Below are positions 38,935 through 52,979 of a stretch of 64,000 nt of DNA, one piece after another. The stretch is from the NCBI GenBank assembly GCA_964402225.1, contig CAYOBQ010000008.1, forward strand, positions 4,293 to 68,292, written 5' to 3'. Source of the DNA: an uncultured Nannocystaceae bacterium. GTDB taxonomy: Bacteria > Myxococcota_A > Bradymonadia > UBA7976 > UBA1532. The translations under genes and the position numbers were made by a program. The notes under the pieces are model-generated. The model saw nothing but the letters and a program-made list of their open reading frames with translations. It was not told the DNA's origin and ran no database searches. Each line of letters opens with the position of its first letter. Positions within the stretch are counted from its first letter, which is position 1.

Positions 38935-40221
38935 ATGGCCATCGACAGACGGCGCTTCATTCGGCACTCGCTCGGCGCGGGTGTGGTGCTCTTCGTGGGT
39001 TGCGATCTCGAGGACGACCCGAGCGGGCTGGGCATCGTGCCCCTGGATGGCGAGCTGCCGCCGCCGGATGGCGCTGCCCTCGGCGGCGGCGACGGCGCGC
39101 TGCCCGATCTGGGCGTCGAGCCCGACATGGCGCCGCCCATCGTCTGCGACGACGCCTTCGCCGGCGGTGAGCTCCAGTCGGTGCTCGGCTTCGCGAGCGG
39201 CGACCGCCCGCCCTTCCACCGGCGGCTCGGCCAGGGGTGGGACGGCCGGCTCTACTTCGACCTCTCGCAGCTCGAGTTCAACGACCTCCTCACGGAGAAC
39301 GACCAGTTCTTCGTACGCACGCTCTACCCCGACACCCTGGACCCCGAGACGACGGAGTGGAGCCTCCGGATCAACGGCCTGGTCGATGCGCCGGTGGAGT
39401 TCGACGCCTCCGAGATCATCGACGCAGCCGAGCCCAAGGGCGGCATCGTGCTCGAGTGCTCGGGCAACGGCGACTTCTCGCAGTTCGGGCTGCTGAGCGC
39501 CGCCGAGTGGGACGGGGTATCGCTTCTCGACGTCATCGAGGCGCGCACCAACATCTCGCCGGCGGCGGTGGCGGTGAAGGTGAGCGGCTACGACGACCAC
39601 TCGATCCCGTCCCGCGGCGGTCACTCGACCCCCGGGGCGGCGTGGATCTACACCTTCGACGAGCTCCGCGAGTTCGACGGATTCCTGGCCACGCATATGA
39701 ACGGCGTCCCGGTGCCGCCCGACCACGGGCGCCCCGTGCGGATGTACATGCCCGGCTGGTACGGCTGCGCATGCATCAAGTGGGTCAACGAGATCACGCT
39801 CGTCGACGCCGAGGAAGAGGCGACCTCCCAGATGCGCGAGTTCGCCAGCCGCACGCACCAGCGCGGCGTCCCGCGTTTGGCCCGCGACTACCTGCCCGCG
39901 TCGATGGATCAGGCGGCGATGCCGATCCGCATCGAGCACTGGCGCGTCGATGGCGAGGACCTGTTCCGGGTGGTGGGCATCCTGTGGGGTGGTTATGCTC
40001 CCACCAACGAGTTGGAGGTGCGCTTCGACTCCGACGAGGACTGGCAGCCGGTCGATGTCTGCCCGCCCATGACCCACAACCAACCGTGGAGCCTGTGGGA
40101 GCACGTGTGGCGACCGCAGGGCACGGGCACCTACACGATACGATGTCGCATCAACAACCCCTTCGTCCCCCAGAGGCGCCTGGACTTCGGCTTCTACGAT
40201 CGCAGCGTGCGCCTGGCCTGA
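38935..40221 (+). CDS. Tat-exported molybdopterin-dependent oxidoreductase (sulfite oxidase/YedY superfamily)
   Basis: MAIDRRRFIRHSLGAGVVLFVGC (twin-arginine motif plus Cys). PGWYGCACIKWVNEI (Mo-ligand Cys region). C-terminal dimerisation-like domain. Confidence 0.8.
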   Translation: MAIDRRRFIRHSLGAGVVLFVGCDLEDDPSGLGIVPLDGELPPPDGAALGGGDGALPDLGVEPDMAPPIVCDDAFAGGELQSVLGFASGDRPPFHRRLGQGWDGRLYFDLSQLEFNDLLTENDQFFVRTLYPDTLDPETTEWSLRINGLVDAPVEFDASEIIDAAEPKGGIVLECSGNGDFSQFGLLSAAEWDGVSLLDVIEARTNISPAAVAVKVSGYDDHSIPSRGGHSTPGAAWIYTFDELREFDGFLATHMNGVPVPPDHGRPVRMYMPGWYGCACIKWVNEITLVDAEEEATSQMREFASRTHQRGVPRLARDYLPASMDQAAMPIRIEHWRVDGEDLFRVVGILWGGYAPTNELEVRFDSDEDWQPVDVCPPMTHNQPWSLWEHVWRPQGTGTYTIRCRINNPFVPQRRLDFGFYDRSVRLA

Positions 40222-40679
40222 TCCTCGCGGCGGTGCTCACGGCGAGCCTCGCCCACGCCCGCAAGCCCCACCCCGTCCACGTGCTGCTCGACCAGGTCCA
40301 CGAGGCCGCCTCCAAGGCCGACTTCGACGGCTACTTCGATCTCTTCACCCCCTCCGCCCTGTTCGTCGGGACCGACGCGGGAGAGGTCTGGAGCATCGGC
40401 GAGTTCAAGGACTACACACGCCCGGTCTTCGCCAAGGGCAAGGGCTGGACCTACCACCCCGAAGCGGCCACCCGTCGCGTCCGCCCCCTCGGCGGGGGCA
40501 GCTTCCGGTTCTACGAGACGCTCAGACACGAGAGGTACGGCGTGCTGCGCGGCAGCGGCGTCGTGGTGACGCACGAGGGCAGGCTGCGGGTCGACCAATA
40601 CGTCCTCAGCTTCGCGATCCCGAACGAGAAGACGCCTGCGGTGTTGAAGGCGATGCGCCAACAGGCTACTTCCCGCTGA
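40143..40679 (+). CDS. NTF2-like/SnoaL-like (DUF4440-type) small secreted protein
   Basis: The real part of ORF 39237..40679 begins after the Mo-enzyme. MSHQQPLRPPEAPGLRLLRSQRAPGLILAAVLTASLAHA is a signal-like region overlapping the upstream gene by 79 nt. Then DFDGYFDLFTPSALFVGTDAGEVW...LRGSGVVVTHEGRLRVDQYVLSF, typical of the NTF2 fold. Start uncertain. Confidence 0.45.
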   Translation: MSHQQPLRPPEAPGLRLLRSQRAPGLILAAVLTASLAHARKPHPVHVLLDQVHEAASKADFDGYFDLFTPSALFVGTDAGEVWSIGEFKDYTRPVFAKGKGWTYHPEAATRRVRPLGGGSFRFYETLRHERYGVLRGSGVVVTHEGRLRVDQYVLSFAIPNEKTPAVLKAMRQQATSR

Positions 40680-41710
40680 TGGCGAAGAAGCGGACATCGA
40701 AGAAGAAGCCCATCCTGGTCACCGGCGCGAGCGGGTTCCTCGGCCTGCACCTGACGCGCGTCCTGCGCGAGGCCGGCCACCCGGTGCGCAGCCTCGGGCG
40801 ATCGCGCTCCGAGCGACTGGCGGCCCTCGAAGTGGACCAGCGGCTCGGATCCGTGACCGATCCCGAGGCCGTGGCCGCCGCCGTCGATGGCGTCGCCGCG
40901 ATCTATCACTGCGCGGGCTGGGTGAGTCGCGACAAGGGCGAGCGCGGCGCGATGTACCGGGTCCACATCGACGGCACGCGCGCGGTGCTCCAAGCCGCCC
41001 TCGACGCAGGCATCGACGATGTCCTCGTGGTCAGCACCAGCGGCACCGTCGGCGTCTCCGACCACCCCGACTTCGTCGCCGACGAGGACTCGCCCATCGC
41101 CTGGGCTCTCGTACGCGAGTGGCCCTACTACGAGTCGAAGGCCTACGCCGAGCGCGAGGTCGCGGCCTTCGTCGAGCGCGGCCTGCCGGTGAAGATGGCG
41201 CGCCCCACGCTGCTGCTCGGCCCCGGCGACTACAACGGCAGCAGCACCGGCGACGTCGTGAAGTACCTCTGCGGCGACATCAAGGCCTCGCTCCCCGGCG
41301 GGATGAGCGCGGTGGACGTGCGCGACGTCGCAGACGCGCTCCCGAAGATCCTCGCCGAAGGTGAGCCCGGCGTCGGCTACCTGCTCGGCTCCGTCAACTG
41401 CACGGTCCGGGAGTTCATGGTCCTGCTCGAGCAGGCCAGCGGCGTGCGCGCCCCGGCGATGTCCCTCCCCCGCCCCATCGTCGATCGCGCCGGCGGCCTC
41501 CTCAAAGCCGTCAGCCGCCTCAAGCCCTTCGGCGGCCTCGAGCCCCAGACCTTCGAGATGGGCTGCCACCACTGGTACCTCGACTCCACCCGCGCAACCC
41601 GCCTCGGCTTCGCCCCACGACCCATCCAAGACACGCTGCGCGACACGGTGGAAGACCTGCGGGGCCATCGCTCCGCCGCCGCCGCCGCCCACCGCGAGTG
41701 CGCAACGTAA
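40679..41710 (+). CDS. NAD-dependent epimerase/dehydratase (extended SDR) family protein
   Basis: ILVTGASGFLGLHL Rossmann motif. YYESKAYAE (YxxxK). ATG overlaps the upstream stop (TGATG). Confidence 0.85.
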   Translation: MAKKRTSKKKPILVTGASGFLGLHLTRVLREAGHPVRSLGRSRSERLAALEVDQRLGSVTDPEAVAAAVDGVAAIYHCAGWVSRDKGERGAMYRVHIDGTRAVLQAALDAGIDDVLVVSTSGTVGVSDHPDFVADEDSPIAWALVREWPYYESKAYAEREVAAFVERGLPVKMARPTLLLGPGDYNGSSTGDVVKYLCGDIKASLPGGMSAVDVRDVADALPKILAEGEPGVGYLLGSVNCTVREFMVLLEQASGVRAPAMSLPRPIVDRAGGLLKAVSRLKPFGGLEPQTFEMGCHHWYLDSTRATRLGFAPRPIQDTLRDTVEDLRGHRSAAAAAHRECAT

Positions 41711-41762
41711 CGCTTTCCCAGCCGCGGTGTTCAGACCTTGGACACCACAGGGAGGTAGACCG

Positions 41763-42362
41763 TTGATCCATCAAGAAACAAGCTCGCTCTCGTTGACGGC
41801 GCTCGCGCTGGCGCTGGCCGCAAACGCGGCCCTCGCAGCGCCGCTCGCCGTCGACGATGTCGCCCCGCGGCTCTTCCTCGAGGATCAGCCGCAACCCATC
41901 CTCATCTTCGGGACCGGGTTCACGCAGGAGACCGACGTGGTCATCGACGGGTTCCTCGTGACGACGACCACCTTCGTGACGGAGAACGTGCTGGCCGCCG
42001 ACGTGCCGGGCACGTTCTTCGACGACGTGGGGCCCATCCAGCTCGAGGTCGTGGACGGGCTCGACGCCATCTTGTACCCGGGGGACCTCGAGGTGCAGCC
42101 GCCGGAGCCCCAGCGCGGCGGCGTCGCTGGGCAGATCGAGCAGCAGTGCCAAGAGCTCCTCGACTGCTCCCGCGCAGCCCTCGACCGCCATCGCCAACAG
42201 AGCTTCGAGGACATCATCACGGCGCCGGACAACGTCGACATCAGGCAGGCGACGAAGCGTCTGAAACGGGAGTCGAAGAAGCTCCGGCGAGCCTGCGAGA
42301 AGGCGGTGCGCAAGACGTATCGCAACTTGAGCCGGCTCGCTCAGAGGCGACCGCCGGGCTGA
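41763..42362 (+). CDS. Secreted hypothetical protein with basic C-terminal tail
   Basis: TTG start 7 nt after GGGAGG. (M)IHQETSSLSLTALALALAANAALA signal. Ig/TIG-like beta-rich core. KRLKRESKKLRRACEKAVRK tail. The upstream portion of ORF 41361.. is an artefact. Confidence 0.45.
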   Translation: MIHQETSSLSLTALALALAANAALAAPLAVDDVAPRLFLEDQPQPILIFGTGFTQETDVVIDGFLVTTTTFVTENVLAADVPGTFFDDVGPIQLEVVDGLDAILYPGDLEVQPPEPQRGGVAGQIEQQCQELLDCSRAALDRHRQQSFEDIITAPDNVDIRQATKRLKRESKKLRRACEKAVRKTYRNLSRLAQRRPPG

Positions 42363-42388
42363 TCAGATCTCCTCGTGGAGGCGGAGGG

Positions 42389-43906
42389 TCAGCTCCGGCG
42401 GACGGCGCGCATGTCGGGGAGGCGGCTCCCGGACGTGTCGATGCCCATCGCCTGGACGATGCCCGCGTAGACGTCGGGCTCCCACAGCGTGCTGCCGGGC
42501 TCCGGTGCCCCGCTGCTCCGGTCGAAGCCGTAGGTCTCCCCGGTGTCGGCGTCGACGCCCCCCAGCACGGTGTTGCCCTTCACCATCGGCGAGACGAGGA
42601 GCGAGCCGTTGTTGATGTGATGCCCCGTGCCGAACTCATCGGCGTCTGCGGGGCGCGTCTTGGTGCGGCCGAAGTCGGTGGCGAAGTAGAGGAGGCTGCG
42701 ATCCCAGAAGCTCTCGCCGTCGGCGTACTCGGCCTCTTTCAACAAGCCGATCAGCCGGTCGGCGACGTTGAGGATCCAGGACCACATCAGGGCCTGGCCG
42801 CTGCGGTGCGCCGTGTGCGAGTAGTCGAAGGCGAGGGGGGGCGTACTCAGACCGCCTGCGTCGACCTGCGGCGTAATGTTCGGCCCGAGGGTGACGGCGA
42901 CGGTGACGCGGTTCTTGATCAACAGGTACGCCAGCGCCGCCTGGGCCTCGAGGGGATCGGTCTCGTAGTTGGGGAAGACCTGCCGCACGCGGGCGGCGTC
43001 GGGGGCCGCGTCGAGGCCGAACTCCTCGAGGGGCATCTGAGGCGAGCTCGCCAGGAAGGTGAGCTGCTTGATGAGGCCCGCCTGCTCCATCGCCGGCATC
43101 TGCTCGGAGCGCTGGCGCTTCCAACGCTTCAGCGCGGAGCTCTGGGCAAACGTCTGGTTGAAGACGGACTGCTCGTCCAGCTCGCCATCGCGCCAGCGCC
43201 GCGCCATCGATATCGCGGAGCGAGGCGGTGCGCCGGCCACGCCCTTCGAGCCGTCGAGCCCGAGGGACCAGATGGGCGCCTGCAGCACCGGCTCGGCCCG
43301 CGCCCGTCCTGGCAGATCGGGGTCGATGCCAGGGGCGATGTACCCGCCGGAGCCCATGTTCACGTTGGGCACCGGCACCCGCGCCCCGTAGGTCGCCGCC
43401 ACCATCTCCTGGAGGGTTCGACCGTTCCAGGCGTCGTTGCCCGTCAGCGCCCGCTTCTGCGCCACGAGGTGATTCACGCTGGTCACCGAGTGGCACAGCA
43501 CGCACATGTCCCGCGCGTGGCGGCGAACGAAGTCCGACTGGTTGGCCACCCCGGTGTACGGCAGCGGGCCCAGATCGTCGAGGCGCCGGTCGATGGCCCG
43601 GAACGGGGTGCCCTCGATGCCCTGCACCATGGCGTCCGGGTAGGTGTTCACGGTCGCTGCGTTTCGGCTCTCGGACTCGCGGATGGCCAGCATCGCGTCG
43701 ATGAGCGACGCCCCCCCCGTGCCGGTGAGCACGATGAGGAAGCGCTCACCCAACTCCTGGGCACGGGCGCGTCCCGGCAGCAACGGCGCGAGCCCCGCGG
43801 CCGCCAGCCCCGCAAGCGCCTGGCGCCGATTGATGATGACACTGCTCCTCTTCCGCTCAGTCGCCGCTTGGCTCATGGGTGGCTCGTCAGTCGCCGCTTG
43901 GCTCAT
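42389..43906 (-). CDS. DUF1501 family protein (sulfatase/alkaline-phosphatase-like fold), Tat signal
   Basis: INRRQALAGLAAAGLAPLLPGRARA Tat-type signal. FATDFGRT...GTGHHINNG matches the DUF1501 signature. The N-terminus is duplicated (MSQAATDEPP/MSQAATERKRSS) by a 30-bp tandem repeat. Confidence 0.8.
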   Translation of the reverse strand: MSQAATDEPPMSQAATERKRSSVIINRRQALAGLAAAGLAPLLPGRARAQELGERFLIVLTGTGGASLIDAMLAIRESESRNAATVNTYPDAMVQGIEGTPFRAIDRRLDDLGPLPYTGVANQSDFVRRHARDMCVLCHSVTSVNHLVAQKRALTGNDAWNGRTLQEMVAATYGARVPVPNVNMGSGGYIAPGIDPDLPGRARAEPVLQAPIWSLGLDGSKGVAGAPPRSAISMARRWRDGELDEQSVFNQTFAQSSALKRWKRQRSEQMPAMEQAGLIKQLTFLASSPQMPLEEFGLDAAPDAARVRQVFPNYETDPLEAQAALAYLLIKNRVTVAVTLGPNITPQVDAGGLSTPPLAFDYSHTAHRSGQALMWSWILNVADRLIGLLKEAEYADGESFWDRSLLYFATDFGRTKTRPADADEFGTGHHINNGSLLVSPMVKGNTVLGGVDADTGETYGFDRSSGAPEPGSTLWEPDVYAGIVQAMGIDTSGSRLPDMRAVRRS

Positions 43907-43920
43907 GGGTGGCTCCTCAG
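43861..43920. repeat. 30-bp tandem direct duplication (1 mismatch) spanning the DUF1501 start codon region
   Basis: tcgccgcttggctcatgggtggctcgtcag / tcgccgcttggctcatgggtggctcctcag. Creates two in-frame ATG starts. Confidence 0.85.
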
Positions 43921-44576
43921 TAAAACAGCGACTCGACGCTGGTGAGTACGGCCATGCAGGCCACCTGGGCCCACGCGAAGGCCGGCGGCCCGTCGAGCTC
44001 CGCGGCCTCGATCTCCCGGTAGAGCTCTCGCAGACCCGAGAGCTCCCGCTCCGAGGGCGTCCGCAACAGCGCGCGGGTGAACAACGTCGTCAGGGCGGCG
44101 GTGGCCTGATCACCTTCGACGTCGATCCGGCCTTCCATCACCGGGATGCGGCCCCAGATGAGCGAGGCGTCGGGGTCCTCCAGATCGAGGGTGATGCGGC
44201 GCGTGCAGCCGGCTGTGGCGATGCGCTCGACCACCATCGGGGCGGAAACCGAGGTCTCGGGAAACGGGGAGTAGATACCCGTCGCGTAGGCGTCGACGCC
44301 CCCCAACGTGACCTTGTGGATCTCCCCGGCGCAATCGATCTGCCCCAGCTCCTGGCAGAGCTCGTCGGGGGGTAGGTCGAGGGCGCGGGCGAAGTCCAGA
44401 CGGAGCCGGTCCGCCCGCTTGAACCGCAGGTTCGCTCGGGTCGAAGCGTACCGAGTCTCGGGTGGCGCGGCGTCGGCTCGCGTGCCCGAGTCGGCCCTCG
44501 ACGCGAGCTCCGGCGGCGCCCCCTCCTCACAGCCCGCGACCCACACCGCGGCGATCAAGATCGTCTCAAGGCGCAC
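43917..44576 (-). CDS. Hypothetical lipoprotein (219 aa), middle gene of the DUF1501 operon
   Basis: MRLETILIAAVWVAGCEEG lipobox. Non-repetitive. Overlaps both flanking genes by about 11 nt. Confidence 0.5.
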   Translation of the reverse strand: MRLETILIAAVWVAGCEEGAPPELASRADSGTRADAAPPETRYASTRANLRFKRADRLRLDFARALDLPPDELCQELGQIDCAGEIHKVTLGGVDAYATGIYSPFPETSVSAPMVVERIATAGCTRRITLDLEDPDASLIWGRIPVMEGRIDVEGDQATAALTTLFTRALLRTPSERELSGLRELYREIEAAELDGPPAFAWAQVACMAVLTSVESLFY

Positions 44577-45966
44577 CGTAGGCCTCCATGCGAATCAAAG
44601 CGTGAAGCATGCGCTCGACGCGGTAGTTGTGGACCGAGGGGAAGTCCGCCACCAGGGCCTCGAACGCCTCCATCTCATCGGTCGTGGGGTCATGGCCGAC
44701 CAGGACGCGCCAGTAGTCCTTCACGGTGGCGCGCGCGAAGTGCTCGCTGTCGGCGGCGACGCGCGCCCACTCGACCAGGTTCGCCACCGGCTCGCCGAAG
44801 ATGTGGCCCGCCTCGGGCACCTCCCGGATGCGCGAGCCCGCCGCCTCGTCGTAGCGCCGCATGCGCCGGTCATCGTAGACGCCGGTGTCGCGGCCGGTGA
44901 TGCCGTGGTAGCGCGAGAACGGGTAAGTGAGCGGATCCAGCGTGCGGTGACAGACGGCGCACGCCTCGTCGAGGATGCCCTTGTCGTCGTAGTCCACCAG
45001 CTCCTGCGCCTCGTCGGGCTCAATCAGCCCCTCGCTGCGCGCGATCTCGAAGCCCAGGTAGCTGCGGTAGGCTTGGGCCGCGGCGGCGCGCGGCACCGGG
45101 GTGAACATCGTGTTGAGCACGAAGAACCAGCGGGACGTGATCATCCCCGCCCGGCGATCGAGCACGGCGTTTTGCCCCATACGCTCGGGCACCCGGGTGT
45201 AGCCCACCAGCGAGTCCGCCACGACGAAGTAGTCCGCCGTCAGGACATCCCGTGCGTCGCGGTCGTCGGTCTGGGTGTAGACGAAGAGCGCGTAGTCGTC
45301 GTCGTAGTCGGCGAGGGGAATGTAGCCCGGGTCGCGCCCCGACTTGATGACCGCGAGGGGCTTCACCTTGGGGTGGGCGAGCTGCCACAGCACGCCATCG
45401 CGTCCCTGCCAGAACGGCGTGTCGAGGCATCGGTCGAGGGCATCGGCGAGGGCGTCGGCCTGGGCCTCCGACTTCAACGCTCGGAAGCCCTCCAGGGCGG
45501 CGTAGTCCGGGGAATGACCGCACACGTCGAGGTGCAGCTTCTTGAAGGCATGGGCGGCGTCGTATCCGCAGACGTTCCACACGGGGTTGGCGCTCTCACA
45601 GCCCGAGACCGGACGCCCGCCGGGCGTATCGGCGGCGTTGCCCGGGTTGGCGCCAGCGGTCATCTCGGCCCGATTGGGGACCCCATCACCGTCGCTGTCG
45701 ATGTCGGCGAGCGACGCCAGGACCTCCGGCAGCCCCGCCTCGAAGTCAGCCTGGGAGAGGGGCCGGGCTGCCCCCGGCAAGAGGGCGTCGGCGATGTCGG
45801 CGCCGAAGGCGTTGTGCGCCGGCGGCTGCGTGTGACAGGTCGTGCAGTCCGGCTTGCCGTCGGCGCACTCCGCGGCGTCCGGCCAGCGTTCACAAACAAT
45901 CCCCGGACCGGGTGGGAGGGCCCACGCCGGGCCGACCACGAGCAACATGAACAAACGCCGCACCAT
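44566..45966 (-). CDS. Secreted cytochrome-c-like protein with two CXXCH motifs; DUF1501-associated partner (PSCyt/DUF1800-like family member)
   Basis: MVRRLFMLLVVGPAWALP signal. CTTCH near the N-terminus. CAVCH at about aa 340. DIDSDGDGVPNRAEM dockerin-like/TSP3 motif. Found upstream of and co-directional with DUF1501. Confidence 0.6.
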   Translation of the reverse strand: MVRRLFMLLVVGPAWALPPGPGIVCERWPDAAECADGKPDCTTCHTQPPAHNAFGADIADALLPGAARPLSQADFEAGLPEVLASLADIDSDGDGVPNRAEMTAGANPGNAADTPGGRPVSGCESANPVWNVCGYDAAHAFKKLHLDVCGHSPDYAALEGFRALKSEAQADALADALDRCLDTPFWQGRDGVLWQLAHPKVKPLAVIKSGRDPGYIPLADYDDDYALFVYTQTDDRDARDVLTADYFVVADSLVGYTRVPERMGQNAVLDRRAGMITSRWFFVLNTMFTPVPRAAAAQAYRSYLGFEIARSEGLIEPDEAQELVDYDDKGILDEACAVCHRTLDPLTYPFSRYHGITGRDTGVYDDRRMRRYDEAAGSRIREVPEAGHIFGEPVANLVEWARVAADSEHFARATVKDYWRVLVGHDPTTDEMEAFEALVADFPSVHNYRVERMLHALIRMEAYGAP

Positions 45967-45983
45967 CAGCCTCCTTCAGCGTT

Positions 45984-46033
45984 CGCTGTGATCCAAACCG
46001 CTGTGATCCACAGCGCTGTGATCTAAAACACAG
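45984..46033. promoter_or_regulatory. Three tandem 15-bp direct repeats (CGCTGTGATCC-N4) immediately upstream of the cytochrome/DUF1501 operon start, followed by an AT-rich island (ttttcaaattttcaaa)
   Basis: cgctgtgatccaaac / cgctgtgatccacag / cgctgtgatctaaaacacag at 45984..46033. ttttcaaa x2 at 46066..46081. Strikingly low GC for this genome. Confidence 0.45.
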
Positions 46034-46037
46034 TACA

Positions 46038-46070
46038 CGCCCGTAGGTTGCGGGCGCGACGCGGCTTTTT
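46038..46070. terminator. GC hairpin (cgcccg-taggttg-cgggcg) followed by a T5 run; possible terminator or regulatory hairpin between the lipoprotein gene and the DUF1501 operon
   Basis: 6-bp GC stem with 7-nt loop at 46038..46056. T5 at 46066..46070. Orientation relative to the flanking minus-strand genes is ambiguous. Confidence 0.25.
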
Positions 46071-46085
46071 CAAATTTTCAAATCC

Positions 46086-47195
46086 TCAGAAGTTCGCGAC
46101 CGTCGGGGCGCAGGTCGACACGCCCGCGCCGACGATGCGGTGACCGGTGCGCTCGAGCACCACCTCCACCTCTCCGTCGGCGGGATTGAAGCGCAGGACG
46201 CGCTCGTTCTCGGTCTCGCCGGCGCGCGTCGTGATGAAGATGTAGTAGCGACCGCCCCAGTGGGCGAAGGCCCACGCGCTCGGCTCACCGGCGAAGGCCG
46301 GGAGTGACCACGAGCGGGCCGCGGATCCGTCGGACTTGTCGAGCCGGACGACCCGGGTGTCGCCGCCCGGGAAGTAGCCGAAGAGCTCGCCGTTCGCGTT
46401 CCCCGTGAGCTCTGCGCCGAAGTCCGTGGCCGGGAGGGGCCCGACAGGGGACAGCGCCAGCGTCCCGGGATCGATGGCGCCGAGGGTGCCCCGGCGCAGC
46501 TCGCCGACGGCGCCTCCGGCCACGTAGAGGGTCTCGCGCCGCGAGCCCGGCGCGTCGCTGACGAAGCCCATCCCGAAGAGTTCGAAGCCCCCCTGCCCCG
46601 GCTCGAACCCGCTCGGCGTACAGCGCGCGTCGGTGGTGTCGACCCAGAAGACCTCGCCGCTGGTGAACAAGACCCAGGCGCGTCCGCCTCGGTCGACGGA
46701 CATCGAGAACGGCCGCGCCTCCCGTTGCCCCCAGCGGGGCCAGGCGTCTCCGGCCGGACACCGGAGCCGCCCGATGCCGCGGAAGGTGTCCGTGCGCGGA
46801 TCGAAGCTCAACAGGTCGGATTCAGTGTCGACCACGTAGACGAGATCCGTGCCCGCGGCGCAGTCGTCGACACAGCGCGACGCCTCGCAGCCACCGGCGC
46901 ACCGCTCGATGGGCTCGCCGACCCCCTCCACGGTGCACGCGTGGAGCACGTCGTCCACGCAGACCTGCCCGGCCGGTGGGCACGCGGTGCAGCCGACGCC
47001 GGGATCGCAGGTCTCGGTGGGCGCGCACATCTCCACGGTCTGCAGACGCCCGTCGGTGCACCACAGGAACGCCCGCCCATCGCAGAGAGTGAGCCCCTCC
47101 ACGCAGTCGTTCGCCAGATCGATCGGGGTGACCTCGTCTCGATCACCGGCCGTGCAACCGAGGGCCAGCACGACGCCAAACGCGCGACACCCCAT
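46086..47195 (-). CDS. Cys-rich lipoprotein with beta-propeller-like C-terminal region (hypothetical)
   Basis: ATG at 47195 preceded by GGAGGAGG. MGCRAFGVVLALGCTAG lipobox. Cys-rich block CVEGLTLCDGRAFLWCTDGRLQTVEMCAPTETCDPGVGCTACPPAGQVC. The upstream 298 codons of ORF 46086..48089 are antisense of the S1 protease gene. Confidence 0.65.
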   Translation of the reverse strand: MGCRAFGVVLALGCTAGDRDEVTPIDLANDCVEGLTLCDGRAFLWCTDGRLQTVEMCAPTETCDPGVGCTACPPAGQVCVDDVLHACTVEGVGEPIERCAGGCEASRCVDDCAAGTDLVYVVDTESDLLSFDPRTDTFRGIGRLRCPAGDAWPRWGQREARPFSMSVDRGGRAWVLFTSGEVFWVDTTDARCTPSGFEPGQGGFELFGMGFVSDAPGSRRETLYVAGGAVGELRRGTLGAIDPGTLALSPVGPLPATDFGAELTGNANGELFGYFPGGDTRVVRLDKSDGSAARSWSLPAFAGEPSAWAFAHWGGRYYIFITTRAGETENERVLRFNPADGEVEVVLERTGHRIVGAGVSTCAPTVANF

Positions 47196-47273
47196 CTTTT
47201 TCCTCCTCCACGTTGCCACGCGGGAAGCACCGAGTGTCTCAACCGGCTGAAACCAATTGAAAGGGAAGTCCCC

Positions 47274-48233
47274 ATGCTCGAGCGAATCCTCATCCCGGCG
47301 TTTCTGATGCTCGCCGTCGGCTGTTCCAACGTCGACCGCGGTGACGCGACCGGCTCCAAGTCCTCGTTCATCGTCGGCGGCCAGCCGGAGGCCGGCTACG
47401 CGGCCGTGGGCGCCCTCGTCGTCGACGGCGAGGCCTTCTGCACCGGGACGCTGGTGGAGCCGCGGGTCGTCGTCACCGCGGCTCATTGCCTCGACGACAT
47501 GCGCGCCCCGCAGATCAGCTTCTTCATCGGCGCCGACGCCACCCGCCTCGGGAGCGGCACGGTGCTGCGCGCCAGCCGCGTCGCCCAGCACCCACGGTGG
47601 GGCGGCGGTGACGATGATCCCGACATCGGCGTGGTGGTCCTCGCCGAGGCAGCGCGGGTGGAGCCCATCGCCCTCAACACCGCCCCGCTCGGGGACGGCG
47701 TCGTCGGCCGCAGCCCCCTCTTCATCGGCTACGGCATCACGCGCGGGAACCGAGACGACGCGGGGATCAAGCGGTCGGTGCGAATCCGCGTGTCGGAGGT
47801 CATGGCCGGCGAGTTCGCCTACAGCCAGCCGGGCGTGAACACCTGCAACGGTGACTCGGGCGGCCCCGCGCTGCTGGAGTTCGGTGGGACAACGAAGCTC
47901 GTCGGCGTCACCTCCTACGGCGACGAGGACTGCGCCGAGTACGGGGTCGATGCCCGCGTTGACGTGCACGCCGACTTCATCCGCCGAGCCGCCGCCGGCG
48001 CCGGGGAAGCCGCCCCCGAGCGCGCCGAGCCGGAGCCGTCGCCGGAGGCGGGTGAGAATGAGGATGAGGAGCCTGAGCAGGAGGAGCACGGCGGAGAGGC
48101 GTGCGACGAGGGCGACTGGGAGGAGGACGGCGACTGGGAGGAGGACGACGGCGACCTCTGCGAGGAGGAGGGCTGGTACGACGATGGCGTCTGCGACGAA
48201 GAGTGCCCCGAGCCCGATCCCGACTGCGAATAG
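47274..48233 (+). CDS. Trypsin-like (S1 family) serine protease lipoprotein with acidic Asp/Glu/Cys-rich C-terminal tail
   Basis: MLERILIPAFLMLAVGCS lipobox. IVGG. TAAHC (His). DIGVVVL (Asp). GDSGGP (Ser). Tail EPEQEEHGGEACDEGDWEEDGDWEEDDGDLCEEEGWYDDGVCDEECPEPDPDCE. Confidence 0.85.
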   Translation: MLERILIPAFLMLAVGCSNVDRGDATGSKSSFIVGGQPEAGYAAVGALVVDGEAFCTGTLVEPRVVVTAAHCLDDMRAPQISFFIGADATRLGSGTVLRASRVAQHPRWGGGDDDPDIGVVVLAEAARVEPIALNTAPLGDGVVGRSPLFIGYGITRGNRDDAGIKRSVRIRVSEVMAGEFAYSQPGVNTCNGDSGGPALLEFGGTTKLVGVTSYGDEDCAEYGVDARVDVHADFIRRAAAGAGEAAPERAEPEPSPEAGENEDEEPEQEEHGGEACDEGDWEEDGDWEEDDGDLCEEEGWYDDGVCDEECPEPDPDCE

Positions 48234-48410
48234 GGCGCTCTACTCGGCTTGCTCGTCGAGGACGTAGCCGAGCACGATGCGCACCACCTCCTTCACCTGG
48301 GAGTCGGCGCCCACCACCCGCAGCCGAGCGTCGACCCCCATCGCGCCCAGCACCCGAATCGGCTCGGCCAACTCTGCGCCGCCCCCGCCGGGGTCTTCTT
48401 CCGAAATACG

Positions 48411-48988
48411 TCACCCCGACGACCGCGAATCCCCCCCGCGAGCTCCTTTTTGGGCCTCGCGCAGCTCGACATCGAAGCGACCGTCCTGGCCAACCTGGAA
48501 CGACACCGCGACCACCGTCCCCGGCCAGATGGCACCGCTCGAGGTGATGCGAGCAGGCCGACGAGCGCCGGCCTCGAAGGCGGCCTCCGCCTCCGTCAAG
48601 ACCGATCCCGAGCGCAGCCAGAACCGGCCTCCCATGAGCGTGGAGATGCGTCGGGTCATGTACAGCCCGAGCCCGGCGTTCCGACGTCGGTCACGCGACC
48701 CGCTGACGAGCGGCTCGAGGGCCATCCGAAGCGCGTCCTCCGGCTCCGTCTGCCCTTTCCATCGCTGACTCAGGTGCCCCGAGACCGTCATCCCGAGATC
48801 CACCACGGCCAGCGTGGCGCGTCCACCGGGGAACCGACCCACCGCAACGAACGCCCCCTCCAGACTTCCCGAGTGCTCGAGGACGTTTCGCAGCAACTCG
48901 GAGAGGAAGTAGGCCACGGCTCTCTGGCCGCGGCGATCATCGCCTGCGCAACCGGGCCGACGTACTCCGGCGGCCCCTCGGAGAGCAC
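48411..48988 (-). pseudogene. GHKL/HATPase_c anti-sigma-factor-type Ser kinase (RsbW-like), apparently frameshifted near 48925
   Basis: The frame of ORF 48411..49094 carries AVAYFLSELLRNVLEHSGSLEGAFVAV...LAVVDLGMT...NAGLGLYMTRRISTLMGGRFWL (N-box through G-boxes). The N-terminal PEYVG.VAQAMIAAAR segment (RsbW-like) lies in the -1 frame (ORF 48788..48988, GTG start). A 1-nt indel in ccgcggcc joins them. Confidence 0.45.
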
Positions 48989-49350
48989 GTGAACGACGGG
49001 GGGGGTGTTCGGACCAATCCGCCGGCTCCCCGAGCCCGGTGCGACACCACCCGAGGCGAAGCGCCGCCGGCAACGTGAGCGATGGGAGCTTCATCGGCGG
49101 ACAGCATAGTTGACTGATGGGCGTCGGGCGCTTGCTCTGAAAGCACCCGGATGGCTTCGGCCATACTGGGGTTGCCTTTGGAAGCTCGGCTCTTGTTCCG
49201 GTTATGGTGTTCCAAGGGCGTTGTTTTTGAATCGAGAACGGGAGGGGGTGGAATCAACTCCTCCCGTTTCCTTTTCTGGAGTCGTCCCTGAGTCGCACCT
49301 TCGACGACCTCCTCTCTCTCGCGCGCAGCCACGTCGGGCCCCGCCCAGTC

Positions 49351-50049
49351 TTGCTGTCCAGCTTGGGCGAGACGCTCGCGGGGATCGAGCCGGGGTTCAC
49401 ATCGACGCGCTACGGTCACCGACGTCTCATCGATCTCCTGCGCTCCGTCCCTGAGTTCGGCCAGCTCCGCCGACGGGAGGACGGCCATCCGGAGTTCACG
49501 TTCCAGCGTGCTCGTGAGTCAGAGACAGACACCGAACACTTGAAGACCCGGAAGCCGATCTGGGACGCGGTGACCGCGTTCCATCCGCCGCTCGGGGGCT
49601 GGAAGCTCGATCTCGCGAGTCTCACGCCCGAGAGGGACGCAGCGCAGATCGCCGCCCAGCCCGAAAGGTATCTCACCCTCCCGGACGCCGGGGTCGAGTT
49701 TCAGCAGGCGGCGCTACGCGCATTCGTGGCCGAGCACGCGCCAGAGCTCGCCCCCTCGATCGACACCCTCCTGACCAACGACGCGTGGTTTTCGGGCATC
49801 CGAGACGCGCTCGGCGGGCACCGGGAGGCTTGGGTCGAGCACCGACGCCGAGCCGTGGTCCGGCGGGTCATCGAATGGGCCGACGCCCACGGAATCCCGC
49901 GCACCGCGGTGATCGAGCCCGCGCCCCGACCCGCTCGGGAGGCAACCAAGGGCCCCCCAACGCGGGCGCTCCTGCACCGACTCATCGACCGGCTCGACGA
50001 CGAGGAGGTCCGCCAGTTCCCCGTCCCGGCTCGAGGGCTGAGGAGCTGA
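49351..50049 (+). CDS. Hypothetical protein (possible OST-HTH/LOTUS-like N-terminal region)
   Basis: TTG-initiated 232-aa ORF. LLSSLGETLAGIEPGFTSTRYGHRRLIDLLRSVPEF resembles an OST-HTH helix pattern. The rest is non-repetitive. The 250-bp low-GC region upstream contains a GGGAGG hairpin. Confidence 0.4.
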   Translation: MLSSLGETLAGIEPGFTSTRYGHRRLIDLLRSVPEFGQLRRREDGHPEFTFQRARESETDTEHLKTRKPIWDAVTAFHPPLGGWKLDLASLTPERDAAQIAAQPERYLTLPDAGVEFQQAALRAFVAEHAPELAPSIDTLLTNDAWFSGIRDALGGHREAWVEHRRRAVVRRVIEWADAHGIPRTAVIEPAPRPAREATKGPPTRALLHRLIDRLDDEEVRQFPVPARGLRS

Positions 50050-50109
50050 TCACCTTCCCCGGGACCGCCGCGTTCTGGCAGTCTGCCGCAAGAACCTCGG
50101 GAGGCCACC

Positions 50110-51906
50110 ATGTCCCGCCTACGACCGTCCCTCGACCGCCGCGAATTCATCCGCCTCACGGCCGTGACGGTCGCCGCCGGCACCATCGGGCCGACCTTCG
50201 CCGGCTGCGACGACGGCGGTGACGCGGAGACCCTGGACGGGATCGGGCCGACGTCGGCGCCGGGCGACATCGCGCGTCTGTTCCCGCAGGGGCTGGCGTC
50301 CGGCGATCCGAAGCCCACCAGCGTGGTGCTCTGGACCCGCGTCGAGCTGACGGGGGAGGCCCCCGTGGACTACGAGATCGCCACCGACCAGGACTTCGAG
50401 GACCCGGTCGTGGTGGGCAGCCTGACGGCGAAGGAGGACAGCGACCACACGGTCCGCGTCAAGGCCACGGAGCTCGAGCCGGGGACCACCTACTTCTATC
50501 GCTTCCGGGCCGACGGTGTGACCACCGACTGGGGTCGCACGCGCACCGCGCCCGCCGCAGACGACGACGCGGCGATCACCTTCGCCTTCGCGAGCTGCCA
50601 GGACTTCAACGGGCGCTACTACCACGCCTGGCGGGTGCTGGCGGAGCGCGACGACGTCGACTTCGTGGTCTTCCTCGGCGACTACATCTACGAGACGGGG
50701 AACGACCCCCGCTTCCAGGAGGGGACCGCCGAGCGCCGCGCGCAGATCCTCGACGGCATCGTCCTCGACGAGGAGAGCGGCTCGAAGGCGGCGCTGACGC
50801 TGGCCGACTACCGCGGGCTCTACAAGACCTACGGATCGGACGCGAACCTCCAAGAGGCGCGCCGGCGCTTCCCCTTCGTGCAGATCTGGGACGACCACGA
50901 GTTCGCCGACGACTGCTGGCAGGACCACGCGACCCATTTCAACGGCGCCCAGGCAGACGACGGCGACGAGCAGGACACCGCGCGGCGGACCGCCGCGAAC
51001 CGCGCGTTCTTCGAGTTCGTGCCCATCGACGTGGCCCACGACTCGGCCCAGAGCTACCCCGACGACATCCGCATCTACCGGCGGCTCCGCTTCGGCAAGC
51101 ACGTCGAGCTCTTCATGACCGACCAACGCTCCTACCGCGACGACCACCTGATTCCCGAGGGGCCGCCCAACGAGACCGTGGGGAAGGTGATCCCGAACTC
51201 GGCGCTGGGTGCGCGGCAGCTCTTGATCAAGACCGGCTTCGACGCGCTGGAGGCGGACGCGAAGCCGTCGCTGCTCGGGGCCGAGCAGAAGGCGTGGTTC
51301 ATCAACGCCGTCAACGACTCCAACGCGACGTGGAAGTTCTGGGGCAACGAGGTCATGCAAGGGCAGCTCGCCCTCGATCTCAGCGAGGTCGAGGAGCTAC
51401 CGGAGAGCTTCCGCGGCGACTTCTACCTCACGGTTGACCAGTGGGACGGCTTCCGCAGCGAGCGGGCGGAGGTCCTGGGGGCCGTGTCGGGGGCGGAGAA
51501 CCTCGTCGTGCTCACCGGTGACCTGCACGCCAACTACGCAAACGAGCTCCACCTCGACTTCGACGCGCCCGCCGATCCCGTGGCCGTCGAGTTCGTCACG
51601 GCGGGGATCAGCTCCCGCTCGTTCCAGGAGATCATCGAGCGCATCGTGGAGGGCAACGACCTGCTTCAGGCCCTCGGCCTGGGGCCCCTCGTCGCGAGGC
51701 TCGACGAGCTGACCGCTGCCCGCAACCCGCACGTGAAGTACACCAAGAACAGGGCGTACGGCGTGGGCTGGATCCAGGTCTCGGCCGACGCGCTCGACGT
51801 GCGCTTCCTTGAGGTCGACGACGTCACATCCGACGCGTTCATGGGCTCCTCGGGCGAGGTCAAGTTCACGGTCGCCAGCGGCTCAAACCGCATCGAACCT
51901 GCCTGA
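50110..51906 (+). CDS. phoD: Alkaline phosphatase D (PhoD) family phosphodiesterase/phosphatase, Tat-exported
   Basis: MSRLRPSLDRREFIRLTAVTVAAG twin-arginine signal. FAFASCQDF, LGDYIYE, WDDHEF, LTGDLHANYA metallophosphatase motifs characteristic of PhoD. The antisense ORF 50119..51360 was rejected. Confidence 0.9.
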   Translation: MSRLRPSLDRREFIRLTAVTVAAGTIGPTFAGCDDGGDAETLDGIGPTSAPGDIARLFPQGLASGDPKPTSVVLWTRVELTGEAPVDYEIATDQDFEDPVVVGSLTAKEDSDHTVRVKATELEPGTTYFYRFRADGVTTDWGRTRTAPAADDDAAITFAFASCQDFNGRYYHAWRVLAERDDVDFVVFLGDYIYETGNDPRFQEGTAERRAQILDGIVLDEESGSKAALTLADYRGLYKTYGSDANLQEARRRFPFVQIWDDHEFADDCWQDHATHFNGAQADDGDEQDTARRTAANRAFFEFVPIDVAHDSAQSYPDDIRIYRRLRFGKHVELFMTDQRSYRDDHLIPEGPPNETVGKVIPNSALGARQLLIKTGFDALEADAKPSLLGAEQKAWFINAVNDSNATWKFWGNEVMQGQLALDLSEVEELPESFRGDFYLTVDQWDGFRSERAEVLGAVSGAENLVVLTGDLHANYANELHLDFDAPADPVAVEFVTAGISSRSFQEIIERIVEGNDLLQALGLGPLVARLDELTAARNPHVKYTKNRAYGVGWIQVSADALDVRFLEVDDVTSDAFMGSSGEVKFTVASGSNRIEPA

Positions 51907-52020
51907 TCCGCGTTTTTCCTTGCGGCGCGGGGCACCGAATGTGGCAGATTGCGCCCCGAATACGCGACGGAGGGGCGGTGTCCTTCCTAGACGTGTTCGA
52001 CACGTTTGGAGGTTCCCCAC

Positions 52021-52665
52021 ATGCGTTACATCATCCTCGCTGCCCTCGCGCTCGTGTTCACGGCGTGCGACAAGCCCGCCGCCGACGGCGCCAAGAAGCC
52101 CGCCGCCGCGACCGGCGACAAGGCGAAGGCCGCCACCGCCGCCAAGAAGCCCGAGGCCAAGAAGCCCGCGGCCAAGAAGGACGCCACCGCCGCGATGGTG
52201 GGCGTCTGGCGCATCGACGTCGACGAGACCATGAAGGGCGACGCCGACTTCCAAAAGGCCCCGCCGGAGCAGCGCAAGGCGATGGAGGGGATGGCCAAGG
52301 CGATCCTCGGCACCGCTTCCTTCGAGTTCACGAAGGACAACAAGGTCAACATCAAGATGGGCCCGAAGACCGAGTCCGGTAGCTGGAAGCTGGTGAAGGA
52401 GGAGGGCGGCAAGCTCACCATCGAGACCATCACCAAGAAGGGCGACAAGGAAGACAAGGACACCATCACCGTCTCCGTGAACGGCGACAAGATGGCCGGC
52501 ACGGGCAAGGACGGGAAGACCATCCACTTCCTGCGCGGGGCCCCCAAGGCCCCCGCCGTCGATCCCGCCGCCGCCGCCGCCGCCGCTCTCGGTGCCGCCG
52601 CCGCTCAGGCCGGCGCCAAGGCCGCCCCCGCCGCCGCCCCCGCCCCTGCCCCCGCCGCCAAGTAG
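52021..52665 (+). CDS. Lys/Ala-rich lipoprotein (hypothetical) with Ala/Pro-rich C-terminus
   Basis: GGAGG lies 8 nt before the ATG. MRYIILAALALVFTAC lipobox. AKKPAAATGDKAKAATAAKKPEAKKPAAKKDA. Lys-rich ordered core (KLTIETITKKGDKEDKDTITVSVNGDKMAG). Noticeably lower local GC. Confidence 0.6.
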   Translation: MRYIILAALALVFTACDKPAADGAKKPAAATGDKAKAATAAKKPEAKKPAAKKDATAAMVGVWRIDVDETMKGDADFQKAPPEQRKAMEGMAKAILGTASFEFTKDNKVNIKMGPKTESGSWKLVKEEGGKLTIETITKKGDKEDKDTITVSVNGDKMAGTGKDGKTIHFLRGAPKAPAVDPAAAAAAALGAAAAQAGAKAAPAAAPAPAPAAK

Positions 52666-52810
52666 CGCGAGCCCGCGCCACGCGCGCGTTCTGCGCTCCT
52701 CTGCCTGCTCGCCATCACGGGCGAGCGGGCCCCTCACCAACAGCGTATCCGAGGGACGTACGCGGGCAACGAACCCGTCGTGCGCGCCAGGGCCCGTCCA
52801 TGAATAGATA

Positions 52811-52835
52811 GGTAGGCTCGCGCCGCGAGCCTACC
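52811..52835. repeat. Near-perfect 12-bp inverted repeat (ggtaggctcgcg c cgcgagcctacc) in the convergent intergenic region
   Basis: Palindrome between the ends of 52021..52665 (+) and 52980.. (-). Candidate bidirectional terminator or protein-binding site. Confidence 0.35.
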
Positions 52836-52979
52836 TTGGCGGTGCCTGTCTTCCATTCTCGAAAAGGGGGCTCAACCGCAGGCGTACGGGAGGTGCGTCG
52901 AGGATTGGGCGACCGAGCCGCGAACGAATCTGACCCACGCTCGCGGCGCGAGTCGCCCTATTGATTGTTCGACAGGCCC

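What the first reader, a model, noticed from the sequence alone, without database searches (positions are those of the whole stretch)
45984..46085. AT-rich regulatory island with three 15-bp direct repeats upstream of the cytochrome/DUF1501 operon
In a genome of about 70% GC, the 100 bp between the lipoprotein gene end (46086) and the operon start (45966) contains CGCTGTGATCC repeated three times at 15-bp spacing. A GC hairpin and the AT-rich direct repeat ttttcaaa x2 follow. This is the clearest candidate transcription-factor operator or iteron array in the window.
Basis: seen in the sequence. Interest (0 to 1): 0.55.

Follow-up and report, generated by a model that had tools for sequence, protein, structure and literature searches.

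The report
Terminator plus triplicated 15-bp spacer repeat
The 119-bp gap between two same-strand genes of an uncultured myxobacterium-like organism holds an ordinary transcription terminator followed by a local three-fold 15-bp repeat rich in small palindromes. The repeat may be a private operator for the downstream operon, but nothing shows that it is a wider regulatory motif.

Summary
CGCTGTGATC (GATCACAGCG on the transcribed minus strand) occurs three times at exactly 15-bp spacing (45984, 45999, 46014). A GC hairpin and TTTTCAAA x2 lie next to it, in a 50% GC island of a 71% GC window.

- The hairpin with its A-rich and U-rich flanks is best read as the intrinsic terminator of the upstream lipoprotein gene, not as a regulator.
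- The repeats fill the roughly 50 bp between that terminator and a strong Shine-Dalgarno sequence (AAGGAGG). This is the only room for the operon's promoter or leader.
- Together with inverted partial copies they form nested palindromes, including a perfect 7-3-7 palindrome, CGCTGTG-GAT-CACAGCG.
- Palindrome content exceeds a null that keeps the tandem structure (P about 0.013).

Against a regulon-wide or conserved motif:
- No other copy exists in about 78 kb of the source genome.
- No copy lies upstream of 80 orthologous operons.
- There is no copy-number variation among the contigs of five metagenome samples.
- No Rfam family matches.
- About 45 comparable short tandem arrays occur in the same 64 kb.

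My best reading, at confidence 0.38, is a lineage-specific operator made by local duplication. A functionless duplication (0.30) and RNA leader hairpins (0.18) remain live rivals. Interest is low.

The parts
46086..47195 (-). Upstream gene: 369-aa predicted lipoprotein (MGCRAFGVVLALGC...). Its stop codon TGA is at 46088-46086.
   Evidence: Gene call (L001 8772-9881). ORF. No Pfam family.
46066..46085 (-). A/T-rich tract GGATTTGAAAATTTGAAAAA (TTTGAAAA x2, period 8; TTTTCAAA x2 on the + strand). I read it as the A-rich 5' flank of the terminator.
   Evidence: In the 49-nt fold the A run pairs with the U-rich tail.
46036..46058 (-). GC-rich terminator hairpin: CGCGCCCG - CAACCTA - CGGGCGTG, 8 pairs of which 7 are G-C. 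One pair is G.U, which exists only in the minus-strand RNA.
   Evidence: terminator-like site. (-19.2 kcal/mol with flanks, z -2.2). (strongest such site in 36000-55999).
46025..46035 (-). U-rich tail of the terminator, TACTGTGTTTT. It contains CTGTG, an inverted partial copy of the repeat core.
46014..46023 (-). Repeat 1, GATCACAGCG.
45999..46008 (-). Repeat 2, GATCACAGCG.
45984..45993 (-). Repeat 3, GATCACAGCG. It ends 8 nt before the Shine-Dalgarno sequence.
45999..46015 (.). Perfect 7-3-7 palindrome CGCTGTG-GAT-CACAGCG, formed by the spacer after repeat 1 plus repeat 2. It is the candidate core operator. As RNA it is a 7-bp hairpin with a GAU loop.
   Evidence: the only zero-mismatch hit in 628 kb searched. 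(-10.3 kcal/mol, z -3.3). (I1).
46016..46033 (.). Inverted repeat CTGTG-N8-CACAG. Inside it, TGTGT-TTTAGA-TCACA (46032-46017) matches the E. coli CRP consensus palindrome at 14 of 16 positions.
   Evidence: Read from the sequence. RNA hairpin -5.7 kcal/mol. No such site upstream of the orthologues.
45977..45988 (.). Inverted repeat CAGCG-AA-CGCTG, formed by repeat 3 and the bases just before the Shine-Dalgarno sequence.
   Evidence: (-4.6 kcal/mol for the 4-bp form).
45970..45976 (-). Shine-Dalgarno sequence AAGGAGG. It is not sequestered in the predicted folds.
44566..45966 (-). First operon gene: 466-aa secreted protein with two CxxCH motifs, PSCyt2/PSCyt3-like below threshold. The start codon agrees with the homologues.
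43917..44576 (-). Second operon gene: 219 aa, no family. It overlaps gene 1 by 11 nt.
42389..43906 (-). Third operon gene: 505-aa Tat-signal protein, a remote DUF1501 relative as judged through its orthologues.

Best explanation
The 119-bp spacer is a composite of two things.

1. Positions 46085-46025 (minus strand) form a Rho-independent terminator that ends the lipoprotein transcript. It consists of an A tract, a GC hairpin and a U-rich tail. This accounts for the hairpin and for the TTTTCAAA x2 part of the 'AT-rich island'.

2. Positions 46023-45984 are a lineage-specific local triplication of a 15-bp unit. It lies in the roughly 50 bp left between the terminator and the Shine-Dalgarno sequence, where the promoter or a short leader of the three-gene operon must be. 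The unit carries the heptamer CACAGCG. Counting three inverted copies, one full and two partial (5 of 7), the heptamer occurs six times in both orientations within 60 bp. One of the resulting structures is a perfect 17-bp palindrome, CGCTGTG-GAT-CACAGCG, centred 41 bp upstream of the ATG.

I infer that this cluster is the operator of an unidentified dimeric or oligomeric DNA-binding regulator that sits on or beside the promoter and controls transcription of the operon. The regulator is more likely a repressor acting as a roadblock, or possibly an activator at about -41.5. On this reading the three 'direct repeats' are extra half-sites created by tandem duplication.

What is shown: the anatomy, the terminator signature and the palindrome excess. 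What is inferred: the position of the promoter, the binding of a protein and the direction of regulation.
For: - Three exact 10-mers at 15-bp period.
- Location between the best terminator-like hairpin in 20 kb and a consensus Shine-Dalgarno sequence. Any independent promoter must therefore overlap the array.
- Genes 1 to 3 overlap or abut each other (an 11-nt overlap and a 10-nt gap), and the three-gene cassette recurs in relatives.
- Inverted-repeat content of the array plus flanks is 7 five-mer pairs against a mean of 1.1 in 20,000 column-permuted triplications, P = 0.013.
- The perfect 7-3-7 palindrome is unique in 628 kb searched.
- All palindrome arms are pure Watson-Crick, as a DNA site requires (read).
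- Core positions are invariant while spacers vary.
- The spacer is identical, with three copies, in contigs from five metagenome samples at 99.7-100% identity.
- The two nearest orthologous loci carry a different palindrome (CGTATTC-N5-GAATACG) plus an extra half-site upstream of the same operon. Palindromic operators with spare half-sites are therefore the local norm for this cassette, while the sequence is lineage-specific.
Against: - There is no second occurrence of the motif in about 78 kb of the source genome.
- None lies upstream of 80 orthologues, and only two chance hits occur in 564 kb of relatives' DNA.
- No transcription-factor gene is recognisable within +/-10 kb.
- No sigma-70-like promoter could be placed. 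The scan finds none anywhere in 20 kb, so it is uninformative for this organism.
- A 15-bp period puts successive sites on opposite faces of the helix. That is atypical for cooperative direct-repeat binders.
- About 45 short tandem arrays occur in the same 64 kb, so mutation alone explains why a repeat exists here.
- The core-versus-spacer contrast is significant only in one of two possible registers, with P between 0.005 and 0.2.
- The population samples are too similar (0.3% divergence or less) to show purifying selection.
Confidence: 0.38

Rival explanations
1. Functionless by-product. Replication slippage triplicated a 15-bp stretch of non-essential spacer between a terminator and a ribosome-binding site. 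The palindromes are what made the stretch slip, not a binding site. Nothing binds it specifically.
For: - TRF finds about 45 distinct short arrays in 64 kb. This one has an average score (67). Other intergenic arrays are more perfect, for example 21 bp x 3 at 7332-7393 with 97% matches.
- There is no other genomic copy, no conservation in orthologues and no nearby regulator.
- With three variable columns the clustering test gives P = 0.2.
- A perfectly conserved 10-bp core is longer than a typical half-site and fits recent duplication.
Against: - Palindrome excess beyond the tandem structure, including inverted copies outside the array at 46033-46029 and 45981-45977 (P = 0.013).
- Spacers differ at 2 to 5 of 5 positions while the 30 core positions have no change.
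- Copy number is fixed at three in all five samples.
- The array sits exactly where the promoter or leader must be.
Confidence: 0.3
2. RNA-level leader. The operon mRNA starts upstream of the array or arises by terminator read-through. The repeats fold into three consecutive hairpins: CUGUG/CACAG with loop 8, CGCUGUG/CACAGCG with a GAU loop, and CAGC/GCUG. These would set mRNA stability or processing, or offer GGA-containing sites (UGUGGAUCA, UUUGGAUCA, AAGGAGG) to an RNA-binding regulator such as a CsrA-like protein.
For: - Predicted folds: -10.3 kcal/mol (z -3.3), -5.7 kcal/mol (z -2.5) and -4.6 kcal/mol (z -3.1) for the three hairpins, and -20.2 kcal/mol (z -2.5) for the 58-nt leader.
- No recognisable promoter lies between the terminator and the Shine-Dalgarno sequence.
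- The array abuts the Shine-Dalgarno sequence.
Against: - No Rfam family matches even at E up to 10.
- The Shine-Dalgarno sequence is not sequestered in any fold, so there is no obvious translational switch.
- No covariation can be tested because no homologous element exists.
- The hairpins need no G.U pair, unlike the terminator.
- Presence of CsrA in this lineage is unknown.
Confidence: 0.18
3. A CRP/FNR-family activator site. TGTGT-TTTAGA-TCACA (46032-46017) would act as a class II site centred 58.5 bp upstream of the ATG. That implies a transcription start near 45983 and a 17-nt leader. Repeats 2 and 3 would be duplicated right half-sites.
For: - 14 of 16 matches to the E. coli consensus palindrome, and 9 of 10 in the two half-sites (read; the consensus is from my own knowledge).
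- The geometry is compatible with the position of the Shine-Dalgarno sequence.
Against: - This is a post-hoc match, one of several motifs I tried. The same TGTG/CACA letters also give an 8-of-9 DnaA-box match.
- No CRP-like site lies upstream of any of the 80 orthologues.
- No convincing -10 hexamer lies at the implied position.
- It does not explain why CGC/GCG next to the half-site is invariant.
Confidence: 0.08
4. Other readings.
(a) A 20-codon upstream ORF (VYCVLDHSAVDHSGLDHSER) acting as a leader peptide.
(b) An iteron or DnaA-box array.
(c) A GATC-methylation phase switch of the agn43 type.
For: (a) An open frame runs from GTG at 46038 to TGA at 45976 through all three repeats and ends on the Shine-Dalgarno sequence.
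(b) Repeat 2 reads TGATCCACA on the + strand, 8 of 9 to TTATCCACA (read).
(c) Three GATC sites lie within 31 bp.
Against: (a) There is no Shine-Dalgarno sequence before the GTG, which lies inside the terminator stem. Third-position GC is 55% (11 of 20, counted from the sequence) against 82-97% in the window's genes, and the frame contains TTA and three GAT codons.
(b) No replication gene or origin context. The period is 15. The variable positions are those a DnaA box needs, and the invariant ones are not.
(c) GATC is common here (445 sites), with 11 clusters of three within 40 bp. No Dam homologue was seen.
Confidence: 0.05

Closest known systems
Rho-independent (intrinsic) terminators of the bidirectional A-tract/hairpin/U-tract type
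   Same: A GC-rich 8-bp stem with a 7-nt loop, a U-rich 3' tail and an A-rich 5' flank, placed about 30 nt after a stop codon.
   Different: The U tract is interrupted (UACUGUGUUUU). Termination efficiency is unknown.
Promoter-overlapping palindromic operators with auxiliary half-sites (for example TetR-, MarR-, GntR- or Xre-type repressor sites)
   Same: A perfect 17-bp palindrome with further half-site copies within 60 bp, immediately upstream of the regulated operon. The nearest orthologous loci have an analogous but unrelated palindrome.
   Different: No cognate regulator gene is adjacent, no binding has been shown, and the promoter has not been located. The extra copies are direct repeats at a 15-bp period, which is not a helical repeat.
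Direct-repeat operators of winged-helix response regulators (Pho boxes, tor boxes) and the three-repeat operator of CarH
   Same: Three tandem direct repeats of about 10 bp next to or overlapping a promoter. The + strand CTGTGAT resembles the E. coli Pho-box heptamer CTGTCAT at 6 of 7 positions (consensus from my own knowledge). A PhoD gene lies 4 kb away.
   Different: Those systems use a 10- to 11-bp period; here it is 15. The orientation is inverted relative to the gene. The PhoD upstream region lacks the motif.
Short tandem duplications (micro- or minisatellite-like arrays) of high-GC genomes
   Same: Period 15, 2.9 copies, 86% matches. It is one of about 45 such arrays in 64 kb.
   Different: It is intergenic, it has an invariant core and it has excess inverted repeats. 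No copy-number polymorphism was seen.

Membership tests
Intrinsic terminator | GC-rich stem-loop followed within 0-2 nt by a U-rich stretch, on the transcribed strand just after a stop codon. | tested here: met
   8 pairs, 7 G-C, loop 7, tail TACTGTGTTT.: -19.2 kcal/mol; strongest site in 20 kb. The G.U pair is valid only on the minus strand.
Iteron array (replication origin) | Adjacent rep or initiator gene and origin context (DnaA boxes, AT-rich unwinding element). | tested here: not met
   The gene list for +/-10 kb has no replication gene. There is no similarity to plasmids or phages.
Iteron array (replication origin) | Direct repeats of about 17-22 bp, phased with the DNA helix. | tested here: not met
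   The period is 15 bp with a 10-bp core.
Transcription-factor operator defining a regulon | The same motif recurs upstream of other genes in the genome. | tested here: not met
   No further copy with up to 1 mismatch above chance in the 64-kb window or in 14 kb of extra contig. Power is low, at about 1% of a genome.
Transcription-factor operator defining a regulon | Motif conserved upstream of orthologous genes (phylogenetic footprint). | tested here: not met
   0 of 80 orthologous upstream regions carry the 10-mer; heptamer counts are at the level I estimate for chance. The nearest orthologues are only 62-67% identical in protein. Closer genomes do not exist in the databases searched.
Transcription-factor operator defining a regulon | Specific binding by a protein; effect on transcription. 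| not testable with these tools
   Needs EMSA, a DNA pull-down or reporter assays.
CRP/FNR-type site | 16-bp palindrome TGTGA-N6-TCACA. | tested here: inconclusive
   One site, TGTGT-TTTAGA-TCACA, at 46032-46017, matches 14 of 16 positions. The match is post hoc, and none is found upstream of the orthologues.
OmpR/PhoB-type direct-repeat operator (Pho box) | Direct repeats at a 10- to 11-bp period, replacing the -35 element. | tested here: not met
   The period is 15 bp.
Known structured RNA (riboswitch, leader, sRNA) in Rfam 15 | Covariance-model match. | tested here: not met
   No match in the spacer even at E up to 10. No tRNA or tmRNA.
Contingency locus / VNTR | Copy-number variation between strains or samples. 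| tested here: not met
   Three copies and an identical spacer in contigs from five metagenome samples at 99.7-100% identity. The sampling is shallow.
Leader-peptide attenuator (upstream ORF) | A start codon with a ribosome-binding site, and coding-like composition. | tested here: not met
   The ORF exists. However, no Shine-Dalgarno sequence precedes its GTG, and its third-position GC of 55% compares with 82-97% in the genes.
Short tandem repeat | Head-to-tail copies detected by TRF. | tested here: met
   45984-46027, period 15, 2.9 copies, 86% matches, score 67.

The most novel reading that the evidence does not exclude
The six-fold cluster of the heptamer CACAGCG/CGCTGTG, with its 17-bp palindrome, is the dedicated control site of a widespread but wholly uncharacterised three-gene cassette of Myxococcota and Bradymonadia. 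It would be either a protein operator or an RNA switch with a GAU-loop hairpin. The cassette consists of a PSCyt-like di-CxxCH protein, a small protein and a Tat-exported DUF1501-like protein. The same kind of site recurs in a distant Polyangia genome: L150 has TGTACTGTGT followed by CGCTGT-GAT-ACAGCG about 65 nt upstream of its orthologue. That would point to a conserved regulator whose sites turn over between lineages.
Probability: 0.08. Interest if true: 0.4.

Novelty: new member of a known kind. Interest (0 to 1): 0.17.

Why it matters
If the array is a real operator, it gives an experimental handle on the regulation of a conserved cassette of unknown function. A 60-bp bait could be used to fish out the regulator. 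The cassette has more than 900 homologues of the first gene at E of 1e-5 or below, and 347 loci among GTDB species representatives. Otherwise this is a routine example of how terminators and slippage-made repeats create 'AT-rich islands' in high-GC genomes. It is useful mainly as a caution against reading every intergenic repeat as an operator.

Tried and rejected
1. Metagenome-wide scan for GATCACAGCG-N(1-30)-GATCACAGCG. Several of the 15-nt arrays read as MDHSxM-type pentapeptide repeats when translated by eye. The source contig was not even returned.
2. Phylogenetic footprinting on 80 orthologous loci from GTDB genomes and 3 from assemblies. There is no motif, no CRP-like site and no positionally conserved hairpin. 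Upstream synteny is not conserved either.
3. Population variation. All contigs are 99.7-100% identical and the spacer is invariant. An apparent 12-nt indel in L207 is a run of N.
4. Extending the source contig by 14 kb found no further copy.
5. Rfam, tRNA, plasmid and phage similarity searches found nothing.
6. Literature search for the 10-mer returned only unrelated primers.
7. Promoter scans found no sigma-70 consensus match anywhere in 20 kb, so the scan cannot place the promoter. By eye I also found no sigma-54 (GG-N10-GC) or ECF-type match.
8. The DnaA-box, Pho-box, LexA-box (CTGT-N8-ACAG; here the gap is N10), upstream-ORF and Dam/GATC readings were considered and rejected, as set out under rivals and membership tests.
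9. The resemblance to L150 was checked with an unbiased local alignment. Its score of 22 is not an outlier among 78 loci; the top scores are 24 and 23. The nearest relative of L150 lacks the element. I kept it only as a lead.
10. PDB sequence searches for the operon proteins gave no hits.

Full report
**What is there**

The window is 71.1% GC. Both flanking genes are on the minus strand.
- Upstream is a 369-aa predicted lipoprotein (46086-47195, stop TGA at 46088-46086).
- Downstream is a 466-aa protein starting at the ATG at 45966.

Read 5' to 3' on the transcribed strand, the 119-nt spacer is:

GGATTTGAAAATTTGAAAAAGCCGCGT-CGCGCCCG-CAACCTA-CGGGCGTG-TACTGTGTTTTA-GATCACAGCG-CTGTG-GATCACAGCG-GTTTG-GATCACAGCG-AACGCTG-AAGGAGG-CTG-ATG.

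- three exact copies of the 10-mer at a 15-bp period (45984, 45999 and 46014 on the + strand);
- the GC hairpin (46036-46058);
- TTTTCAAA x2 (46067-46082).

The quoted 11-mer CGCTGTGATCC is exact only twice.

**Is it more than chance?**

Against random sequence, yes. The 9-mer with up to 1 mismatch shows no excess elsewhere in the window, with 12 hits against 16 expected, and only the three array copies are exact. Allowing 2 mismatches in the 10-mer gives only scattered hits.

Against this genome's own habits, no.
- TRF reports 62 rows, about 45 separate arrays, in 64 kb. This array's score of 67 is average. A cleaner intergenic array, 21 bp x 3 with 97% matches, lies at 7332-7393.
- The 50% GC island is one of 17 islands at or below 58% GC.
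- GATC is frequent (445 sites), with 11 clusters of three GATC within 40 bp.

**The hairpin and the AT-rich tract are a terminator**

On the minus strand, an 8-bp stem with 7 G-C pairs and a 7-nt loop is followed by TACTGTGTTTT and preceded by AAAAAG.
- It is the strongest terminator-like site in 20 kb.
- With its flanks it folds at -19.2 kcal/mol.
- One stem pair is G.U, which is valid only in the minus-strand RNA.

This reading accounts for the 'GC hairpin' and for the TTTTCAAA x2 tract without invoking regulation.

**The repeats**

They fill the roughly 50 bp between the terminator tail and a consensus Shine-Dalgarno sequence (AAGGAGG, 45976-45970). Any promoter of the operon's own must therefore overlap them. 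Otherwise they are in the mRNA.

Operon structure rests on two observations:
- an 11-nt overlap and a 10-nt gap between the three genes;
- the same three-gene order in relatives.

The array is more than a direct repeat. The heptamer CACAGCG occurs three times forward and, as CGCTGTG or 5-of-7 versions, three times inverted. These give:
- CTGTG-N8-CACAG;
- the 12-bp palindrome CACAGCGCTGTG;
- a perfect 7-3-7 palindrome CGCTGTG-GAT-CACAGCG (46015-45999);
- CAGCG-AA-CGCTG.

I used a null that permutes the columns of the 3 x 15 block and shuffles the flanks, so that the tandem structure is kept. It gives a mean of 1.1 five-mer inverted pairs against 7 observed, P = 0.013.

The contrast between the invariant core and the variable spacers gives P between 0.005 and 0.2, depending on which flank is counted as the third spacer. 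That is suggestive only.

**Tests of the operator or regulon idea**

- *Other copies.* There are none in the window and none in 14 kb of additional contig.
- *Close relatives.* The source is a metagenomic population. Contigs from five samples are 99.7-100% identical, and the spacer is identical in all of them with three copies. So there is no copy-number variation, but also no power to detect selection.
- *Distant relatives.* The nearest orthologues of the 466-aa protein are 62-67% identical and come from Myxococcota and Bradymonadia MAGs. None of 80 orthologous upstream regions has the 10-mer. Heptamer counts are at the level I estimate for chance. No CRP-like site and no positionally conserved hairpin is present.
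- *Synteny.* The upstream gene is not conserved, so the junction itself is lineage-specific.
- *Local pattern.* The two closest loci (L126 and L131) carry a different palindrome, CGTATTC-N5-GAATACG, plus a spare half-site. This suggests the cassette is usually under a local palindromic operator whose sequence changes between lineages.
- *Other searches.* Rfam, ARAGORN, plasmid, phage and literature searches were all negative.

**Alternative readings**

- *RNA hairpins.* Three are predicted (-5.7, -10.3 and -4.6 kcal/mol), but they leave the Shine-Dalgarno sequence free. They cannot be tested by covariation.
- *CRP-like site.* A 14-of-16 match lies at 46032-46017, and an 8-of-9 DnaA-box match lies in repeat 2. 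Both come from the same TGTG/CACA letters and are post hoc. The pattern of invariant positions does not fit a DnaA box.
- *Upstream ORF.* A 20-codon ORF runs through the repeats. It lacks a ribosome-binding site and has non-coding composition.
- *Iterons.* Excluded by context and by the period.

**Verdict**

Part of the 'island' is a terminator. The triplicated unit is best regarded as a lineage-specific promoter-proximal palindrome cluster, most likely a private operator (0.38). A functionless slippage product (0.30) and an RNA leader (0.18) are not excluded. It is an ordinary feature of a known kind and of low interest.

Noticed in passing
window 42389-45966 (minus strand); loci L003, L005, L126-L205: This is a conserved three-gene cassette of unknown function. 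It consists of a 466-aa secreted protein with two CxxCH motifs (sub-threshold PSCyt2/PSCyt3), a protein of 219-263 aa with no family, and a Tat-signal protein of about 480-505 aa. 11 of 19 orthologues of the Tat protein hit Pfam DUF1501 weakly. There are 920 homologues of the first gene at E of 1e-5 or below, and 347 loci in GTDB representatives, mostly Myxococcota and Bradymonadia with some Alphaproteobacteria. No PDB relative was found by sequence.
   Followed up: partly
L150 2895-2930 (Polyangia MAG JBGAUT010000013.1): About 65-85 nt upstream of its orthologue, L150 has TGTACTGTGT followed by the perfect palindrome CGCTGT-GAT-ACAGCG. The order and the GAT centre are the same as in the window element. 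The local alignment score is not an outlier among 78 loci, and the closest relative, L147, lacks the element. This may be coincidence.
   Followed up: partly
L126 about 2885-2905 and L131/L003 (3690-3715 in L003): The two nearest orthologous loci share a different candidate operator upstream of the operon. It is the palindrome CGTATTC-TCGAT-GAATACG (in L131, CGTATTC-TGATT-GTATACG), plus a second CCGTATTCT copy about 65 nt further upstream. It lies next to a divergent 299-aa gene.
   Followed up: no
window 43856-43921: A 30-bp tandem duplication (2.2 copies, 94% matches) at the 5' end of the 505-aa gene duplicates MSQAATDEPP/MSQAATE. Two pipelines call different starts, giving 505 and 495 aa.
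   Followed up: no
window 46118-46126 and 46035-46043: The 9-mer CGGGCGTGT (minus strand) forms the 3' arm of the terminator and also occurs 83 nt upstream, inside the end of the lipoprotein gene. That upstream copy could pair with the terminator's 5' arm as an alternative, translation-sensitive structure. It may equally be a chance two-copy repeat (D2 and I2).
   Followed up: no
window 7283-7393: Two adjacent 21-bp tandem arrays lie just after the gene ending at 7276. One has 2.1 copies at 87% matches and the other 3.0 copies at 97%. They are cleaner than the array under study. Their sequence (GCCTCGCGGGCTTGCTGCTCG) looks coding-like, so the gene map here may be incomplete.
   Followed up: no
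window 47196-47273: A 78-bp divergent intergenic region lies between the lipoprotein gene and a trypsin-like serine protease gene (47274-48233, Pfam Trypsin E = 3e-25). It presumably holds the lipoprotein promoter, from which terminator read-through into the operon would originate.
   Followed up: no
metagenome loci L028, L035, L054, L063, L081, L092, L099: Elsewhere, the 10-mer GATCACAGCG at a 15-nt (or, in L099, 39-nt) period mostly lies in arrays that read, when translated by eye, as His/Met-rich repeats of the type MDHSGM/MDHSAM. These resemble periplasmic copper-binding motifs and are unrelated to the window element.
   Followed up: no
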